Assembly (NCBI GenBank): GCA_964016885.1
Contig: OZ024743.1
Coordinates: 69,192,001 to 69,256,000, forward strand
DNA from: Eledone cirrhosa
Taxonomy: Eukaryota
DNA: 64,000 nucleotides
Direction of reading: 5' to 3'
Shown here: one piece after another, positions 3,303-63,531 of the stretch
Position numbering within the stretch: position 1 is the first letter of the stretch
Layout: each line of letters opens with the position of its first letter
Notes under the pieces: generated by a model
Told to the model about the DNA's origin: nothing
The model's input: the letters and a program-made list of their open reading frames with translations, nothing else
Database searches by the model: none
Position numbers and translations under genes: made by a program

Positions 3303-3420
<118 letters not shown>

Positions 3421-3813
3421 AAATTAAGATAAATTAAATGAATTTAATCTAAATCGAAATTGTGGGTGTCATGCCATAACGGCGTGCGCCATATCTCCCG
3501 TAAAATAAGCTCAAAGATTTTGTAGGTCCGAGCATTTTATAATAACTAGAAATTGATTAACATATATATAAACATGTATAATCACAGGAGATAATTTTTA
3601 TATTCAATTTATGTTAATTTTGGATATAGATATATACGGCTCCTTAATTGTAGAGCTAACTCTGTTGAAAGGAATCGACTGCTGTTTCTAGTTGTCGAAT
3701 ACCTATTCACGCCACTAAGACGAAGCCGCTGTGATGTGTAAAAACAACACGTGGTAGCGGCCAGTTGAAAATTTGAACTCGCTGTGTAAACATGTATTGC
3801 TGGACAATTGTTC

Positions 3814-3907
3814 TTCCTTGTTGATAATCCAATAATATCCACTTTCCCTGACTTACCATCTGATTAATTGGTGAAATATATTTCTTTAATGGAATATATA
3901 CAGTGAA
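3814..3907 (+). ncRNA. Type I hammerhead ribozyme, U3-A8 core variant
   Basis: ttccttg-TTGATAA-tcca...tggt-GAAA-tatatttc(tttaat)ggaatata-TA-cagtgaa. Confidence 0.65.
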
Positions 3908-4383
3908 AATTAATCATATTAAAAGGTATCTATTTTTGAACTACTAGTCAACTTTATTTATTTGTTACCTACTAGCTATGCGTGGTTACACGCTTGTAAA
4001 CAATATCTCCTGTGATTATACATGTTTATATATATGTTAATCAATTTCTAGTTATTATAAAATGCTCGGACCTACAAAATCTTTGAGCTTATTTTCCGGG
4101 CGATATGGCGCACGGCGTTATGGCATGACACCCACAATTTCGATTTAAATTAAATTCATTTAATTTATCTTAATTTTGGATATATATATATATATATATA
4201 TAAATACGGCTCCTTAATTGTAGAGCTAACTCTGTTGAAAGGAATCGACTGCTGTTTCTAGTTGTCGAATACCTATTCACGCCACTAAGATGAAGCCGCT
4301 GTGATGTGTAAAAACAACACGTGGTAGCGGCCAGTTGAAGATTTGAACTCGCTGTGTAAGCATGGATTGCTGGACACTTGTTC

Positions 4384-4470
4384 TTCCTTGTTGATAATCC
4401 AATAATATCCACTTTCCGTGACTTACAATCTGATTAATTGGTGAAATATATTTCTTTAATGGAATATATA
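4384..4470 (+). ncRNA. U3-A8 hammerhead copy truncated at the predicted cleavage site
   Basis: Nearly identical to 3814-3900. Similarity stops immediately after ...ggaatata-TA (4470). Confidence 0.6.
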
Positions 4471-4508: not shown

Positions 4509-4603
<95 letters not shown>

Positions 4604-4647
4604 AATAAACGAAGCTAATATCACCCTGTCGACTTACACTTCATATT

Positions 4648-4679
<32 letters not shown>

Positions 4680-4938
4680 CTTAAAAGAATAGAGGTGTAA
4701 CACACAAGTTATTATATATTGGTAAACGGAATAGAAAATGCTGACAAATTGTTCACAGTTGAAAAATGGTTTAATTAGGAATGAAAGAGTATTAGTGATT
4801 GTATGGGTTAGTATTCAGTTGTGGTTTTAAGTTTTTAAGTTTTTACCGGTTGCGCATTTCTAAATGCTTTTCAAAAATAATTTTGAGATAGAGTGTCCGT
4901 GCTGTTTGCTCTGATCTGATTAGTTTTGGGAATTCTAC

Positions 4939-5168
4939 CTGTTTTTATGTTAAAAAAGTGGCTCCAGCGTTACTTTGGTGTTGCAAAATTTCTTGTGGTC
5001 AAAACAAATTTGATTGGTCGGTAGAGGTCATGTGAGTGTAAAAAATTGATTTTGCGCCAAGACTGTTTTTATGTTAAAAAAGTGGCTCCAGCAACAATTC
5101 TTGTGGTCAAAACAATTTTGATTGGTCGGTAGAGGTCATGTGAATAAAAAATTGGTTTTGCGCCAAGA
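4939..5168. repeat. ~120-bp tandem duplication in the Penelope terminal region
   Basis: CTGTTTTTATGTTAAAAAAGTGGCTCCAGC...GATTGGTCGGTAGAGGTCATGTGA...TTTTGCGCCAAGA occurs twice. Confidence 0.85.
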
Positions 5169-5193
5169 TTGAGAAATGACTCTTTCACAACAA

Positions 5194-5281
<88 letters not shown>

Positions 5282-5743
5282 TAGTAGTAGTAAGGTGTTC
5301 GATGTTGTGATAATTGTTAGCAGCGATGTGTGTCAAATGGCTATTGAGATAAGTGTGTGTGTGTGTGTGTGTGTATAGCAGAGTAATTCGTGGTGGCAGG
5401 GATGGTCAGTAAGAATGTGTCTGAAAGCAATGGGGGGTATTTTAGCATGTCAAAAGATATTTTTCAGCTTTTGTCTTATACGGAGAAGTGCGTGTGTGTG
5501 TGTGTATATAAGTCTCTTTGTATGTTGATGTACGCATGTGTATGTGTGTGTGTATATATGTGTGTGTTGTGTGTGTGTGTGTGGGTGGACCAGTATTTTT
5601 TCCCCCTGGTAAAATGGTGTACATTATTCGATTTTTTCAGTAAAATCGGTTCTCTTAATAGAACATCAAAAATCTTAACAATAAAAGGTGTGAAATGATA
5701 TTCACTATATATATATACACACATACATATATTCACTATATAC

Positions 5744-5774
<31 letters not shown>

Positions 5775-5920
5775 TATATATACACATATATATGCACATA
5801 TATTTGTTTGTGTTGCACCATAGAGCATGTGTGTTTACGTATGTCATTGTGTTTATATGTGGGTAGAGATGTGTGCTGATGTAGGTATGTATGTTGACGT
5901 GTGTATGTTGTGGGTTCGTC

Positions 5921-8168
5921 TTAGGGAGAAGTGTTTAGACGGGGTCCGTATTTGTTAATGAAGTAAAATTCCTTGCTGATGCGCTGGGTGTGGGTGGCAT
6001 TATCTTTAAATTTGTAGCGGGGAAAGATTCTGAAATTGGGATGATTTTGGGCGGCACAGGTATCAGTGTATTCACTCAGTGGTATTTTCCTGTATTCCCG
6101 TATTTTAATTTGGGATCTATAGACAGTCATGCGTTGGCGGAGGCTGTTTTTGGTCTCGCCTATGTATTGTTCTCGACAACCTGAACAAGTTAATACATAT
6201 ATTAGATTTTCCGATGCACATGTGAAATTGTGTTTTACTATAAAACGTTGTCCATCTTTGAAATAGAATTCCGAACCCTCTATTAGGTTGATGCAAATGC
6301 CACAGTTGGGTCTATCGCATTTTTTTACTGTGGGTTTCGTTGTTGTGGTTGGCAGTACTTTGGCATGTGTTAAGATGTTTTTCATTGACTTGGATTGTCT
6401 TTTGCTCTTTATGATATCGTGTGTTCGTAGAATTTGGTTCATTCTATGGTCCTTTTTCAATACAGGGATGTTCTGGAGGATGGTGTCAAAGGCCTCATTG
6501 TTGAGGGGGTTGTGCGTGGAGATGTATGGAAGAGCTTTTAGTTTTGGTTGATTTACTTTAGGGTGTCTAAGGTCCTGGGTACTGAGTTTTAGGGCACGTT
6601 GAATTCCATTGTCAATTAGTGATGCAGGGTAGTCCCTGCCTATGAGTGTGTCCTTTAGTTCTTGTAGCCGTAAGTAGCAGATGTTTTTATTGGAGACTAT
6701 AGTACAGATTCTCTTGGCTAAGTTGTAGGGAATATTAATTTTAACGTGTCTATGGTGGCAAGAGTTGAAGGGGAGATATTGCATGGAGTCTGTGGGCTTG
6801 TAGTATATCTCTGTTTTTATTTTTTTGTTATGGATCTTAATGAGGATGTCGAGGAAGGGGAGTTTTGATGGCTGTATTCCATCGTGAAGTTAATATTTGT
6901 GTTGAGCCCATTTATAAGGGTGTGAAATTCTTTAAGTTTTTCGATGTTTTCGTGCCAAAGGATGAAGCAGTCATCTAGATATCGCTTCCAGTTCCTTTCA
7001 ATGTGTAAGTGGAGGGTGTTTCCAAATTTGTTTAGGACTTTAGTGTAGAGGGTGATTTCCAGGTATCCCATGACTAGGTTGGCATAAGTGGGGGCTGTTT
7101 TCGTTCCCATAGCGGTCCCAGATTTCTGCCTGTAGGGTTTGTTATTGAAAACGAAGTAATTGTTCTCCAAGATAAATTTGAGTCCCTCTATCACGAATTC
7201 TTTTTTGATGCGTTGTGGGAGTTCATTGTGGAAATTATCCAGCCAGAATTGGATAGCTTCTATTCCTAGGTTGTGGGGGATGTTGGAGTATAGGTTGACT
7301 ACATCGAACGTCACTAGTAGGGTTTGTTCAGGAAGTGGCATATTAGGGAGGTGATTGAGCATATCTAGGTCGTCCTTTATATAGCTTTTGATGTGCTTGA
7401 GGAAGGGTTTGAGAAGGGTATCAATGAAGTTGCTAAGACGGTGTGTTTCGGAAGCGGGGCCTGCTATTATAGGTCTTAATTTGAGATCATTGGGTGAGGG
7501 GACATTGGTGACTATGTCTGTGGCTTCCTTGCATGCCTTACTTATTGATTCGCTTTTATGTACTTTAGGGATACCGTAGAAAAGGCTGGATTTACTTGTG
7601 AAGTCTGTGATGAAGCTGAATTCCTTGTTAGTGAGTCCTTCTTTGTATTGGTTGATTAGAGTTTTTAGGTTTCTCATAATTTTCTGTTGATTGTAGTGTT
7701 CAGCCTTTTCGTAGTATGTTTCGTTTTCCAAAGTGGAGAGCGCTAAGTTGATATAGAATTCTGTCTCCATTAGGACTACTGTACTCCCTTCATCAGCCTC
7801 TTTAATTGTAATGGTTCTGTCGGTTTTTAATCTATTTAATTCTTCCCATTCTTTCTTGTTGAGGTTTGGCTTGTGTTTTTGTCTGTGCAAGTGTTGGTAA
7901 GGGAAGTTTGTGATGTGTTCACAGAATTCGTCCAGGATTTTATTTCTACCTTTTGAAGGGGTGTAATTGCTTCTATTTCTGGCTAATGATTCATCCTCAT
8001 TGTACTGGTCGAATAGTTGTTCACTAAGTCGTAACTTTCTACAGAAGTCTGTGATGTCTTCCTTCATTTCATAGTAGTGAGGACGTAGTGGGGTCGGTGT
8101 GAATTTAAGAACTTTGGAGAGTAAGTTGATAAGGTTGGGTGTTGGTTCTGCACTAGTAAGATCGATAA
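5921..8168 (-). pseudogene. Penelope-like RT-GIY-YIG polyprotein, single 1-nt frameshift near 6864
   Basis: LLSKVLKFTPTP, FYGIPKVHK, LRPII, FDVVNLYSNIP, QKSGTAMG, RYLDD, then LPFLDI...YYKPTD in the next frame. CDRPNCGIC linker and LIYVLTCSGCREQYIGET endonuclease motif. Confidence 0.93.
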
Positions 8169-8566
8169 TTTTTTAACATAAAAACAGTCTTGGCGCAAAA
8201 TCAATTTTTTACACTCACATGACCTCTACCGACCAATCAAAATTGTTTTGACCACAAGAAATTTTGCAACACCAAAGTAACGCTGGAGCCACTTTTTTAA
8301 CATAAAAACAGGTAGAATTCCCAAAACTAATCAAATCAGAGCAAACAGCACGGACACTCTATCTTAAAATTATTTTTGAAAAGCATTTAGAAATGCGCAA
8401 CCGGTAAAAACTTAAAAACTTAAAACCACAACTGAATACTAACCCATACAATCACTAATACTCTTTTATTCCTAATTAAACCATTTTTCAACTGTGAACA
8501 ATTTGTCAGCATTTTCTATTCCGTTTACCAATATATAATAACTTGTGTGCTACACCTCTATTCTTT

Positions 8567-8672
<106 letters not shown>

Positions 8673-8721
8673 AATATGAAGTGTAAGTCGACAGTGTGAT
8701 ATTAGCTTCGTTTATTCACAT

Positions 8722-14940: not shown

Positions 14941-15068
14941 TAGAATGCTCTACTGGCATACCGCCTATGGAAGCATCATAGCTACCATTAAACACACACA
15001 CACACAGATATATATATATATATATATATAGATAGATAGATAGATATATATACAGATATATATAGAAG

Positions 15069-15119
15069 AGCTTCTACAGGAATAGAACTGTTTCATTCGG
15101 GAGAAATCATCAGGAAGCT
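15069..15119 (-). ncRNA. Canonical type I hammerhead (left arm of palindrome)
   Basis: agcttc-CTGATGA-tttc(tccc)gaat-GAAA-cag(ttctattc)ctg-TA-gaagct. Confidence 0.85.
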
Positions 15120-15165
15120 CCTGATGATTTCTCACGAATGAAACAGTTCTAGTCCTGTAGAAGCT
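15116..15165 (+). ncRNA. Canonical type I hammerhead (right arm of palindrome)
   Basis: agctc-CTGATGA-tttc(tcac)gaat-GAAA-cag(ttctagtc)ctg-TA-gaagct. Confidence 0.8.
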
Positions 15166-16619
15166 CTGCTATATTAAAACTTGTATACATTGCTATTACT
15201 TTACTTACTGTGGTTACCTCCGATTCAACCCGGAAAAACTTATATATATATCTATATATATATACACACACAAACATATATATAATATAAATATATATAA
15301 AGATATATACGTATTTATATATATACACATAATATATATATATATTTATATATATATATATATATATATGTGTATGTGTGTGTGCGTTGTATACGATAGC
15401 GTATATTCCATTAAATGACGGCGCACATCCCTTTGTGTGTGCTGTTGCGCATGTTTAAGATAACTACACTAAGCTTAGGACTTTGATAAGTTTAATTCAT
15501 TATCAACATAGTCTAATCTATTAAAGCTATATATGGAACATATGTCAATTGGCTCTGCTTACGTCAATGTACTCCATACTCTTAAATGCCAGATGTTGTT
15601 TATATTCAGTCTGAATATTTCAAGAATCTGAATAACAAAACATTCTTATACTTTTCAATATACTCTTTACACGTGTAACTCTTTCAGTCATTAGACTGTG
15701 ACCGTCCATGTTGGGAAACAACCTTACAGTGATTTAGTCGATAATTTCCACCACGGTATTTGTTTATTTTTCTAAGCCTCTTAGCTTATTATCACTATAT
15801 TTTTTCGAACATCTAATTTACAACATATAAACAAAAAGAGACAATTGTGAAATAAGACACATGCACGCACGCATACATACCACACATATACAATCATACA
15901 TACATGATGGCAGCAACTCGATTTCGAATAATGCCATCACTTGATACTTAAGCATGAGCATCATGGACGTGGATTCCTAGTCCTGTTAGTGACTTGAGTA
16001 TGACCAGCAATACCATGCATCGCAAGAAAATGTCAGATAGCAAGTGATGCCTGTTCTTGAAGGTTTTTTTAAAATGAGGAAAGGCTTTGCACGGGGCCAA
16101 TTCCACTCTCTGAACATGAAAGTTGCTAAAATTTATTTATAGATAATTTCACTCAACACAATCGAAATATTTGCGACTCGCATAAAATTAACAACTTGTT
16201 GAGACGATATTCTGAGCAGGTGAATGTTGTGAAGCTTCAACCTATAGAAAGGGACATCATATGTTGGTGGTATATTGTAACATCGTTATTCCTTCTTTGT
16301 TCTAATCCAGCCATGGTTTGCTTCACCGTTTATCTCTCCAGTTTCGATAAAATAATTACGAATGAAATAATTAGATGGATTAAAGCAAATATAAAATCCT
16401 CTAAAATGATGACCTTGTATCAAGGACACACATTTTAAAGTTTAATTCAGATCCATTTTCAACGCCAACTCAATACTAAATATATTGTAGATAAACATAC
16501 TCAATATTCACAGAATTGACCTGGCCTTATGGGATTTGGGGTGGGGTGGGGGTGGTATGTTGACATGATTGGCTGCGCTTTAAAAAAATCTGAAGATATT
16601 ACCGCACAATGTAAAAGTG

Positions 16620-17339: not shown

Positions 17340-18082
17340 GGGACCAGATTCGCTAAGGTGAAAAGAATACTAACTATAGACAATAGATAGTATTATTTTC
17401 ACCTTAGCGAATCTGGTCCCTTATAATTTGAACACATATATGTATATATCTATGTTCGTTTTTCTTTTATATTCAATATATGGCTTGGAAAAATCTCTTT
17501 CCTAGAGCTATTTTATTGTAAGAGACTATGTTGAGTTTCTAACTTAATATATACCTTTGATATATTCGGGTCCGTTAATTTGTTGGCTAATTCAAATGTC
17601 GAGTAAACCTAGCTGCTATTTTTAGTGGTGTGAGTGTGTGAGACACGCTAAGTTCAGATACCATGTGCGTTATTATATATACGCACACTATTCAGATTTT
17701 TAATATACTTAGCAGTGTCCAGGATACTAATTCTTCATCCGCTGATGAGCAATAATTGGTATTCCTCTTCACAATTAGTTTTGCGAAACAGCATTACCAT
17801 AGCTGTCTGGTGATTGGTAGTTACCACAATTCCGGTTTGTATTTATTTTCTTGATTTATTCTTAAATTGAGTCAGGCAAACCCTATTGTCTATAGTTAGT
17901 ATTCTTTTCACCTTAGCGAATCTGGTCCCTTACAATTTGAACACATATATGTATATATCTGTGTTTGTCTCTCTTATATTCAATTATAAGATACGGCTCG
18001 GATAAATCTCTTTCCTAGAGCTAGAGCTATTTTATTGTAAGAGACTATTTTGAGCTTATAACTCAATATATACCTTTGATAT
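17340..18082 (+). mobile_element. Non-coding HHR-bearing unit, family C (~510-bp period with 5' fold-back)
   Basis: 17340-17387 is inverted relative to 17883-17929 and 17396-17420. 17396-17562 is repeated at ~17905-18082. Confidence 0.8.
17735..17813 (+). ncRNA. Type I hammerhead ribozyme
   Basis: ccg-CTGATGA-gcaataattg...caattagttttgc-GAAA-cagc(attaccata)gctg-TC-tgg. Confidence 0.8.
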
Positions 18083-18171: not shown

Positions 18172-18373
18172 TATTGGTAAAAGGAAAAGAAAATGCTAAC
18201 AAATTGTTCCCAGTGAAAAATAATTTAATTAGGAATAAGTAAAAATTAGTAATAGTATTGGTTAGTATTCAGTTTTAGTTTTAATTTTTACCTGTTGCGC
18301 ATTTCTAATGCTTTTCAAAAATAATTTTGAGATAGAGCGCCCGTGATGTTTGCTCTGATCTGAGAGCAAACAT
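18172..18373 (-). mobile_element. Solo 3'-terminal fragment of the 4681-8570 Penelope family
   Basis: Similar to 4716-4918. Ends in the fold-back GATGTTTGCTCT-gatctg-AGAGCAAACATC. Confidence 0.8.
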
Positions 18374-49078: not shown

Positions 49079-49105
<27 letters not shown>

Positions 49106-49263
49106 CAACTAGAAATTGATTGATATATATTTATATCTAAAATAAACATATGAAACAATCACAGGGAATAATTTGTAAATGTGTGTAAGCACACATAGCC
49201 AGGTAGGTAACTAATTAAATTTTAACTAGAACCTTAAAAATAGATACCTTATCAATTGATTAA

Positions 49264-49357
49264 TCTTCCTTGTATATATTTCATTAAAGAAATATATTTC
49301 ACCATTAATCGATCGGTAAACCACAGTAGCCAAATCCCGCATTTTCAACAAGGGAGA
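49264..49357 (-). ncRNA. U3-A8 type I hammerhead
   Basis: ccttg-TTGAAAA-...tggt-GAAA-tatatttc(tttaat)gaaatata-TA-caagg. Perfect 8-bp stem III and 5-bp stem I. Confidence 0.7.
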
Positions 49358-49690
49358 AGATCAAACTATCTGTGTTTATACAGCAAATTCAAATCTGCGA
49401 ATGACTTGCAGCACGTGTTGCATTTTTCAAAAATACACACATGGTACCAGTGGATATGGCGTATGTCTCTCTGACATGACACCCTTAATTTAATTTTGGA
49501 TATATCCACGGCCCTTTAATTGTAGAGCTAACTCAGTTGAAAGAATCGGCTGCTATTTCTAGTTGTCGATAACCGTATTCACGCCACTGGGATGAAGCTG
49601 GTACGATGTGTGTATGTTTGAAAATTGCAACACGTGCTGCTAGTCATTTGCAGATCTGAATTTGGTGTGTAAACATACATTGTTAGATCT

Positions 49691-49784
49691 TCTCCCTTGT
49701 TGAAAATCCGTAATTTGGCTACTGTGGTTTACTGATCGATTAATGATGAAAAGAATTTCTTGAATGAAATATATACAAGGAAGA
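49691..49784 (+). ncRNA. U3-A8 type I hammerhead (stem III partly decayed)
   Basis: ccttg-TTGAAAA-tccg...-GAAA-agaatttc(ttgaat)gaaatata-TA-caagg. Confidence 0.6.
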
Positions 49785-50038
49785 TTAATCGATTTATATG
49801 GTATCTATTTTTAAGGTTCTAGTTAAACTTTAATTAATTACCTACCTGGCTATGTGTGCTTACACACTTTTACGAAATATTCCCTGTGATTGTTTCATAT
49901 GTTTATTTTAGATACATATATATGTCAATGAATTTCTAGTTGATATAAAATGCTCGGATCTATTCATTGGAATTCTGGAGCATATTCTGCAGTGGATATG
50001 GCGCGTGTCTCTCTGACATGACACCCTTAATTTAATTT

Positions 50039-50080
<42 letters not shown>

Positions 50081-62159: not shown

Positions 62160-63531
<1,372 letters not shown>

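What the first reader, a model, noticed from the sequence alone, without database searches (positions are those of the whole stretch)
3814..3907. Second U3-A8 hammerhead family (four copies) varying at the free N7 position
Seen: copies at 3814 and 4384 have TTGATAA, and diverged copies at 49264 (-) and 49691 (+) have TTGAAAA. U3, A8, GAAA and the AUA site are retained and only N7 changes in the core. One copy has a perfect TATATTTC/GAAATATA stem III and CCTTG/CAAGG stem I. Inference: the pattern fits selection on a ribozyme core. The same variant in families A and B suggests a whole U3-A8 clade.
Basis: partly seen in the sequence, partly recalled or inferred. Interest (0 to 1): 0.75.

Follow-up and report, generated by a model that had tools for sequence, protein, structure and literature searches.

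The report
Core-swapping hammerhead in Penelope-type repeat
A short protein-free repeat with thousands of copies in this animal genome carries a hammerhead (self-cutting RNA) motif whose key active-site base pair occurs as U-A, C-G or G-C in different branches of the family, which suggests the RNA likely has to cut itself for the repeat to be spread, probably by Penelope-type enzymes; cutting is untested.

Summary
The four motifs are real, but they are two insertions of one ~540-560-bp non-coding repeat with Penelope-type anatomy, and all four copies are damaged. U3-A8 is already published for Penelope hammerheads, and the 'U3-A8 clade' idea fails: inside this one family the 3-8 pair is U-A in 1,894 exact genome matches, G-C in 495 and C-G in roughly 290, with few mismatches. 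A tree built without the core box needs at least three switches between paired states. Stem I and a long extra helix (5' flank with loop II) also covary; stem II starts with U·U and is short; a second pseudoknot is only sequence-conserved. Best reading: a type I hammerhead kept under selection in the master copies of a Penelope-dependent retrozyme-like element. No RNA data, no partner protein found, and an excess of copies starting at the cut site was not shown. I found G3-C8 in print only as a lab mutant; this scan noted G3-C8 hammerheads in other genomes and pseudoknot-braced ones in other families of this genome.

The parts
3415..3600 (-). Inverted, 5'-truncated arm of the repeat (3' part and tail only), next to (TA)n
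   Evidence: Reverse match to 3997-4182
3622..4180 (+). Full ~560-bp unit (subfamily B1): conserved 5' head, hammerhead, 3' region, inner end near 4059, tail to about 4180
   Evidence: no ORF of 120 aa or more overlaps it
3790..3915 (+). Hammerhead copy 1: extra-helix 5' strand about 3790-3811, stem I 3812-3820/3901-3909 (broken after 3 bp here), box U3-A9 3821-3827, stem II from U·U 3828/3872, GAAA 3873-3876, stem III 3876-3899, predicted cut after 3900
   Evidence: extra helix weak in this copy
4181..4470 (+). Second, head-to-tail unit with hammerhead copy 2 (N3 4391, G12 4443); ends exactly at A17 (4470) and is followed by a piece of another repeat
49101..49450 (-). Inverted, 5'-truncated arm (subfamily B2) ending at the inner 3' end in (TA)n
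   Evidence: 91% reverse match to 49598-49947
49258..49378 (-). Hammerhead copy 3: N3 49348, G12 49300, predicted cut after 49273; stems I and III good, stem II broken by a C-to-G change
49448..50040 (+). Tail fragment (49448-49505, a pseudo-LTR-like partial tandem) plus full ~540-bp unit ending in (TA)n; inner end 49947
49670..49790 (+). Hammerhead copy 4: N3 49700, G12 49748, predicted cut after 49775; stems II and III damaged

Best explanation
This is a type I hammerhead motif in a ~540-560-bp protein-free repeat with Penelope-type insertion anatomy, whose 3-8 active-site pair is U-A, C-G or G-C in different branches, and it likely self-cleaves in the master copies that spread, probably using a Penelope-like reverse transcriptase/endonuclease in trans. 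Shown here: the motif, the copy anatomy, the covariation. Inferred steps: (1) head-to-tail units are transcribed; (2) the RNA first forms a long helix (about 13-20 bp) between the 5' flank of stem I and loop II, which would cover the strand of a rival hairpin that could bury G12-A14, and a second pairing of loop II with the 3' flank of stem I may add to it, so that stems I and II are held side by side despite a U·U-based stem II of usually 3-5 bp; (3) cleavage after AUA cuts multimers to unit length and the units are probably circularised; (4) a Penelope-like protein nicks (TA)n and starts cDNA at one of two fixed internal sites, reads through the re-joined cut site and on into the previous unit, which gives the partial tandems and inverted arms.
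For: 3-8 pair, whole-genome exact counts: U-A 1,894; U with non-A 58; non-U with A 83; non-U with non-A 903, of which G-C 495. The first 100 of the 903 rows, by eye: 56 G-C, 31 C-G, 6 mismatch or wobble, 7 not of the family. Independence would give about 640-660 in each off-diagonal cell (copies are related, so no p-value is claimed). Tree of 61 copies without the 7-nt box: C-G on two separate branches, G-C on a third, U-A elsewhere. In a Penelope hammerhead, single C3G or G8C abolish cleavage and the double change partly restores it (PMC11167929). On a structure-blind alignment of 65 copies: two-sided changes in 4 of 9 stem I pairs, 8 of 13 pairs of the extra helix, 1 of 3 stem II pairs; 90.5% of cells paired against 39-44% for slid controls. 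The extra helix was matched by at most 18 of 300 shuffles in 16 of 17 copies. Head-picked sample. Anatomy: two 3' ends in (TA)n (66 end at the inner site, 110 continue, 13 other of 189; at the outer site 69 end and 60 join the next head, 2 other of 131), partial tandems and inverted arms, as described for Penelope-like elements. U10.1·U11.1, 2-bp stem II, U3-A8 and stem I-II pseudoknots occur in natural hammerheads (PMC3088659; axolotl HHR_Amex2).
Against: No cleavage or expression data. Two small amplified sub-lineages lack a Watson-Crick 3-8 pair: C3·A8 (about 14 rows at about 8 sites) and U3·G8 (8 rows at 7 sites), so the pair is not strictly needed for some spread. No clear excess of copies beginning at the cut site: 16 junctions in 40 rows against 12 in 26 and 3-4 in 34 at two control sites. 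Only 2 of 191 copies end there. The second pseudoknot has 0 of 6 two-sided changes and is partly lost in one C-G subfamily; stem III is almost invariant (1 of 9 two-sided), so it adds little. MFE folding of the four window copies does not give stem II, and RNAalifold returns only stems I and III. No Rfam hammerhead model matched eight copies at E<=10. No autonomous partner was found. In vitro, hammerhead cleavage was not needed for insertion by the anole Penelope protein.
Confidence: 0.7

Rival explanations
1. It is an ordinary slow type I hammerhead with a short stem II; the long 5'-flank/loop II helix is real but serves folding or protection of the whole (circular) RNA, or switches the ribozyme off, and the second pseudoknot does not form.
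For: The second pairing has no compensatory change. Retrozyme circles are highly self-paired and their hammerheads must be kept from re-cutting. The inner end of the long helix reaches the outer pairs of stem I in some subfamilies.
Against: The long helix is compatible with stems I-III, does not overlap the core, and covers the rival hairpin strand. Pseudoknots between stems I and II raise rates in other hammerheads.
Confidence: 0.3
2. The active-like fold is selected as a binding or priming signal for the Penelope protein, not for cutting.
For: The anole Penelope hammerhead cleaves only with its protein and cleavage is not needed for insertion in vitro. Most cDNAs run through the site and no clear excess of ends at the site was seen.
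Against: A protein-binding role would be expected to fix base identity, yet three different Watson-Crick pairs each reached hundreds to thousands of copies; the 3-8 pair is a feature of the catalytic conformation.
Confidence: 0.13
3. The repeat is spread by something other than a Penelope-like protein (a LINE, or DNA-level rolling-circle or satellite amplification).
For: No coding partner sharing the 3' end was found in 230 loci or by three short motifs in the Naiad/Chlamys supplement.
Against: Two fixed 3' ends with a tail, partial tandems, inverted 5'-truncated arms and (TA)n targets are the Penelope signature; no poly(A) tail in the 3' flanks shown.
Confidence: 0.07
4. The motif is a dead relic or chance match and the paired changes are founder effects of a few master copies.
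For: Only three or so independent switches underlie thousands of copies; the unbiased column test is modest (p about 0.03).
Against: Each switch needs two changes ending in a complementary pair, and the same lineages show compensations in stem I, stem II and the long helix.
Confidence: 0.04

Closest known systems
Penelope-associated type I hammerheads, including the U3-A8 variant of Schistosoma mansoni Cercyon elements (Cervera and de la Pena 2014, PMC4209133; parts 1-2 of 4 read)
   Same: Type I order, U3-A8 core (about 1,300 hits there), location in Penelope-type repeats, opposite-strand pairs 100-700 bp apart.
   Different: Metazoan motifs there are minimal (no or palindromic stem III, dimer-dependent, G10.1-C11.1, long stem II). 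Here stem III is 9 bp, stem I is 9 bp, stem II is short with U·U, loop II is 30-40 nt and pairs with the 5' flank, and three 3-8 pairs occur in one family. The long stem III resembles the fungal and protist variants of that paper.
Metazoan non-LTR retrozymes (Cervera and de la Pena 2020, PMC7229834, passages and section 15; Li, Clavereau and Pollet 2026, bioRxiv 10.64898/2026.07.22.740005, part 1 of 5)
   Same: Non-coding, AT-rich unit with one type I hammerhead, head-to-tail copies, proposed Penelope dependence; axolotl HHR_Amex2 also has U·U at the base of stem II.
   Different: Unit is larger (540-560 against about 170-400 nt), mostly single or partial-tandem insertions with inverted arms; non-canonical core and flank-pairing helix; RNA and circles not shown here.
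Pseudoknotted hammerheads and natural core variants (Perreault et al. 2011, PMC3088659; passages and part 3 of 8)
   Same: Stem I-II pseudoknot (about 40% of their set), 2-bp stem II, U10.1·U11.1, U3-A8.
   Different: The passages read describe one 4-6-bp pseudoknot and C3-G8 to U3-A8 only; here a 13-20-bp helix plus a possible second one, and G3-C8.
Type-SGC non-circularly permuted hammerheads (Eckert et al. 2023, PMC10085705; part 3 of 8)
   Same: An extra helix joins the far sides of stems I and II.
   Different: Block order here is C-G-S (ordinary type I), not S-G-C.

Membership tests
Hammerhead ribozyme, type I | Core boxes N3-UGA-N7-N8-A9 and G12-AAA, with U16.1-H17, in C-G-S order | tested here: met
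   AUA in 161 of 183 copies, AUU in 15
Hammerhead ribozyme, type I | Watson-Crick pair between positions 3 and 8 | tested here: met
   U-A, G-C and C-G dominate; off-diagonal classes 58 and 83 of 2,938 matches
Hammerhead ribozyme, type I | Stems I and III | tested here: met
   Stem I 8-9 of 9 pairs in 158 of 183 and covarying; stem III 9 of 9 in 160 of 183 but nearly invariant (the 183 were filtered for at least 14 of 18 pairs)
Hammerhead ribozyme, type I | Stem II, usually closed by G10.1-C11.1 | tested here: inconclusive
   U·U at 10.1/11.1 then 2 or more pairs in 165 of 183; one compensatory change; U·U is a published natural variant; not recovered by MFE
Hammerhead ribozyme, type I | [quoted passage not shown] | tested here: inconclusive
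   Long 5'-flank/loop II helix covaries (8 of 13 pairs); second pairing does not (0 of 6); role untested
Hammerhead ribozyme, type I | Site-specific self-cleavage | not testable with these tools
   Genomic proxy inconclusive
Hammerhead ribozyme, type I | Match to an Rfam hammerhead model | tested here: not met
   No hammerhead family among 31 hits at E<=10 in 8 copies or among the 150 listed of 194 window hits; expected for a long loop II and variant core
Non-autonomous Penelope-like element | Partial tandems, inverted 5'-truncated arms, two 3' ends (tail), microsatellite targets | tested here: met
   tail here is about 95-125 bp, longer than the 30-40 bp in PMC8557442
Non-autonomous Penelope-like element | 3' end shared with an autonomous RT/GIY-YIG element | tested here: inconclusive
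   None found in fetched loci, in the neighbouring Neptune-type family, or by three motifs in the Naiad supplement; no exhaustive search possible
Metazoan non-LTR retrozyme | Non-coding unit with one type I hammerhead in head-to-tail copies | tested here: met
   60 of 131 outer ends join the next unit's head; no ORF
Metazoan non-LTR retrozyme | Abundant unit-length linear and circular RNA | not testable with these tools
   No RNA holder listed
Minimal dimer-type Penelope hammerhead | Absent or short palindromic stem III | tested here: not met
   9-bp stem III with a 6-10-nt loop
Type-SGC permuted hammerhead | Block order S-G-C | tested here: not met
   Order is C-G-S

The most novel reading that the evidence does not exclude
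A monomeric animal hammerhead in which both flanks of stem I clamp loop II through two helices, making the core so tolerant that the active-site 3-8 pair has flipped among U-A, C-G and G-C at least three times in one family; each restored pair re-amplified to hundreds or thousands of copies, which would be a natural experiment showing that self-cleavage is required for Penelope-driven spread in living germ lines although it is dispensable in vitro.
Probability: 0.35. Interest if true: 0.75.

Novelty: new variant of a known kind. Interest (0 to 1): 0.55.

Why it matters
Why Penelope-like elements keep hammerheads is open: the one reconstituted system inserts without cleavage (PMC11167929). A single family in which only complementary 3-8 pairs reach high copy number is evolutionary evidence that the catalytic conformation matters for spread, and it supplies matched natural U-A, C-G and G-C ribozymes for a direct test. 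It also shows a class that descriptor and Rfam searches miss (variant core, U·U, long loop II), and a natural G3-C8 core that my searches found in print only as a laboratory rescue mutant.

Tried and rejected
Rfam: only microsatellite-driven miRNA hits, no hammerhead. Alternative stem II (ACC/GGT directly before GAAA, leaving an insert after A9): rejected because subfamilies break it while keeping or compensating the U·U-CC/GG register. SGC order: rejected. Link to the neighbouring Neptune-type element: no shared sequence beyond (TA)n; the protein search returned only that family. Three short motifs of this unit were absent from the Naiad/Chlamys supplement of PMC8557442, which lists two cephalopod Naiads as 'HHR_half_core'; this neither links nor excludes Naiads. 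Excess of 5' ends at the cut site: first control suggested it, second did not. No RNA holder listed; laying two contig sets of unknown kind showed the repeat but nothing on ends or expression. One search had a register error for stem III and was replaced; the tree held only 2 C-G rows and was replaced. Invariance of core columns in alignment A1 is circular (rows were picked by the core pattern) and was not used as evidence. Lunse et al. 2017 and Przybilski and Hammann 2007 were not held, so a natural G3-C8 there cannot be excluded; figure-only supplements of PMC4209133 and PMC3088659 were not seen.

Full report
Observation. The four boxes, GAAA and AUA are at the stated places; predicted cuts fall after 3900, 4470, 49273 (-) and 49775. 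A motif with stem I of 5 or more and stem III of 8 or more pairs arose in 0 of 30 window shuffles. The copies are two insertions, a tandem pair and an inverted pair, and each has a defect in stem I, II or III.

The element. The window lies in a 3.0-Gb genome; DNA searches with the two subfamilies gave 1,645 and 2,394 first-look candidates, an exact 18-nt head motif has 1,137 matches with 0 for the control, and the hammerhead pattern has 2,938 matches over four searches, a few percent of them not of the family. The unit is 540-560 bp without an ORF. Copies end in (TA)n at two fixed places: of 189 inner sites 66 end there, 110 run on into a tail and 13 were unclassified; of 131 outer sites 69 end in (TA)n-like sequence, 60 join the next unit's head and 2 were other. 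Partial tandems and inverted 5'-truncated arms are common. This is the anatomy described for Penelope-like elements (PMC8557442, passages), and two internal starts of reverse transcription explain such tails (PMC11167929, part 1 of 4 and passages). No partner ORF was found.

The 3-8 pair. With N3, N7 and N8 left free, exact genome counts are U3-A8 1,894, U3 with another base 58, another base with A8 83, and neither 903. Of these 903, G3-C8 is 495. My count by eye of the first 100 listed rows gave 56 G-C, 31 C-G, 6 mismatched or wobble and 7 unrelated, so C3-G8 is roughly 290 (an estimate). Independence would put about 640-660 in each off-diagonal cell, but copies share ancestry, so the real unit is the switch. 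A maximum-likelihood tree of 61 copies (thinned from 112) built without the box places C-G on two separate branches and G-C on a third (16 rows, two of them single C·C copies), with U-A elsewhere; it is midpoint-rooted, so direction is not known. At least three switches between paired states follow, each needing two substitutions. Against strict need: a C3·A8 sub-lineage (about 14 rows, about 8 sites) and a U3·G8 one (8 rows, 7 sites) did spread a little.

Core against flanks. In 82 of 90 copies picked only by the 5' head (8 dropped as rearranged), six subfamilies of 4-17 copies (50 copies) showed no change among their majorities at the nine invariant core positions, against 92 of 274 flank columns (p about 0.03); within subfamilies 5 of 446 core cells deviated against 466 of 13,422 flank cells. 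The within-subfamily figure probably reflects unresolved master lineages and alignment noise in flanks, so I weigh it lightly.

The fold. On a MAFFT alignment of 65 copies I counted a 41-pair structure: 90.5% of cells paired, against 39-44% for slid partners (the structure was drawn from these sequences, which favours it). Stem I is 9 bp with two-sided changes at 4 pairs. Stem II begins with U·U and then has 2 or more pairs in 165 of 183 copies, with one compensatory C-G to U-A change. Stem III is 9 bp and nearly invariant. It covers the 5' strand of a rival hairpin that could bury G12-A14. A second pairing, of the end of loop II with the bases just 3' of stem I, is 92% paired but has no two-sided change, so it stays a guess. 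MFE and RNAalifold, which cannot model pseudoknots, return only stems I and III or parts of them, and no Rfam hammerhead matches.

Does it cut? Not shown. Only 2 of 191 copies end at the site, and 173 of 183 copies with the 3' strand of stem I also have stem III upstream, so most cDNAs cross the site, as expected from a re-joined circle or an uncut multimer. Earlier scan notes on other families reported an excess of copies starting at the cut; here I found 16 junctions among 40 rows at the site, against 12 among 26 and 3-4 among 34 at two control positions (classed by eye; site against both controls p about 0.06). That is inconclusive. No RNA holder was listed.

Mechanism. Shown: motif, anatomy, covariation. 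Inferred: transcription of tandem units, folding with the flank helix as a brace for the weak stem II, cleavage after AUA, probable circularisation, and Penelope-type target-primed insertion into (TA)n from two internal starts. The circle route is the published model for animal retrozymes (PMC7229834, passages and section 15; bioRxiv 10.64898/2026.07.22.740005, part 1 of 5).

Comparison with what is known. U3-A8 is published for natural hammerheads (PMC3088659, passages and part 3 of 8) and for about 1,300 Schistosoma Penelope motifs (PMC4209133, parts 1-2 of 4). U·U at the base of stem II, 2-bp stems II and stem I-II pseudoknots are also published. G3-C8 I found only as a laboratory variant with partial rescue (PMC3884650, PMC11167929, PMC8495972; passages) in searches; two relevant papers were not held. 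The block order is ordinary type I, not SGC (PMC10085705, part 3 of 8). The motif I take to be 'family A' is a minimal U3-A8 hammerhead with C at position 13 in the pLTR of a young Neptune-type element next door, identical in 30 of 34 matches in its loci (the clade label rests on the CxxxxCxxC linker described) and unrelated in sequence, so U3-A8 is recurrent, not a clade.

Verdict. A new variant of a known kind: a braced, probably monomeric type I hammerhead whose active-site pair has been swapped repeatedly within one Penelope-type family. Interest 0.55.

Noticed in passing
window 4535-8677 (ORF 5921-8172, minus strand): Penelope-like element with RT and C-terminal GIY-YIG and a Neptune-type cysteine linker, frameshifted here; many near-identical copies elsewhere have open frames of 784 aa, so the family is young. 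Its pLTR carries a minimal hammerhead with U3-A8 and an unusual C at position 13 (N3 at 4874 -, 8376 +; related at 18318 -, 49040 -).
   Followed up: partly
window 4470/4471: The second tandem copy stops exactly at A17 and is joined without clear microhomology to a 41-bp piece matching 14955-14996 of another repeat; L074 also stops at A17. Could be ligation of a cleaved RNA end, or insertion or deletion at the TA-rich stem.
   Followed up: partly
window 15065-15170: Head-to-head pair of type I hammerheads of another family with a canonical C3-G8 core, 9-bp stem I and, again, U·U at the base of a 3-bp stem II.
   Followed up: no
window 17742-17807 (+): A canonical-core hammerhead-like motif with a G-C-closed stem II and long loop II, weak stem I.
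   Followed up: no
window 3634-3730 and 49505-49600: The 5' head of the unit is conserved across all subfamilies and holds a recurring hairpin; no Rfam match. Candidate promoter or protein-binding site.
   Followed up: partly
L032-L060 and L115 (subfamily B1 branch): A sub-lineage has AUU instead of AUA at the cut triplet (15 of 183 copies), which departs from the usual not-G, preferably C or A, position 17 only mildly; activity unknown.
   Followed up: no
window 62248-63326 (+): Decayed LINE-type reverse transcriptase fragments (Pfam RVT_1).
   Followed up: no
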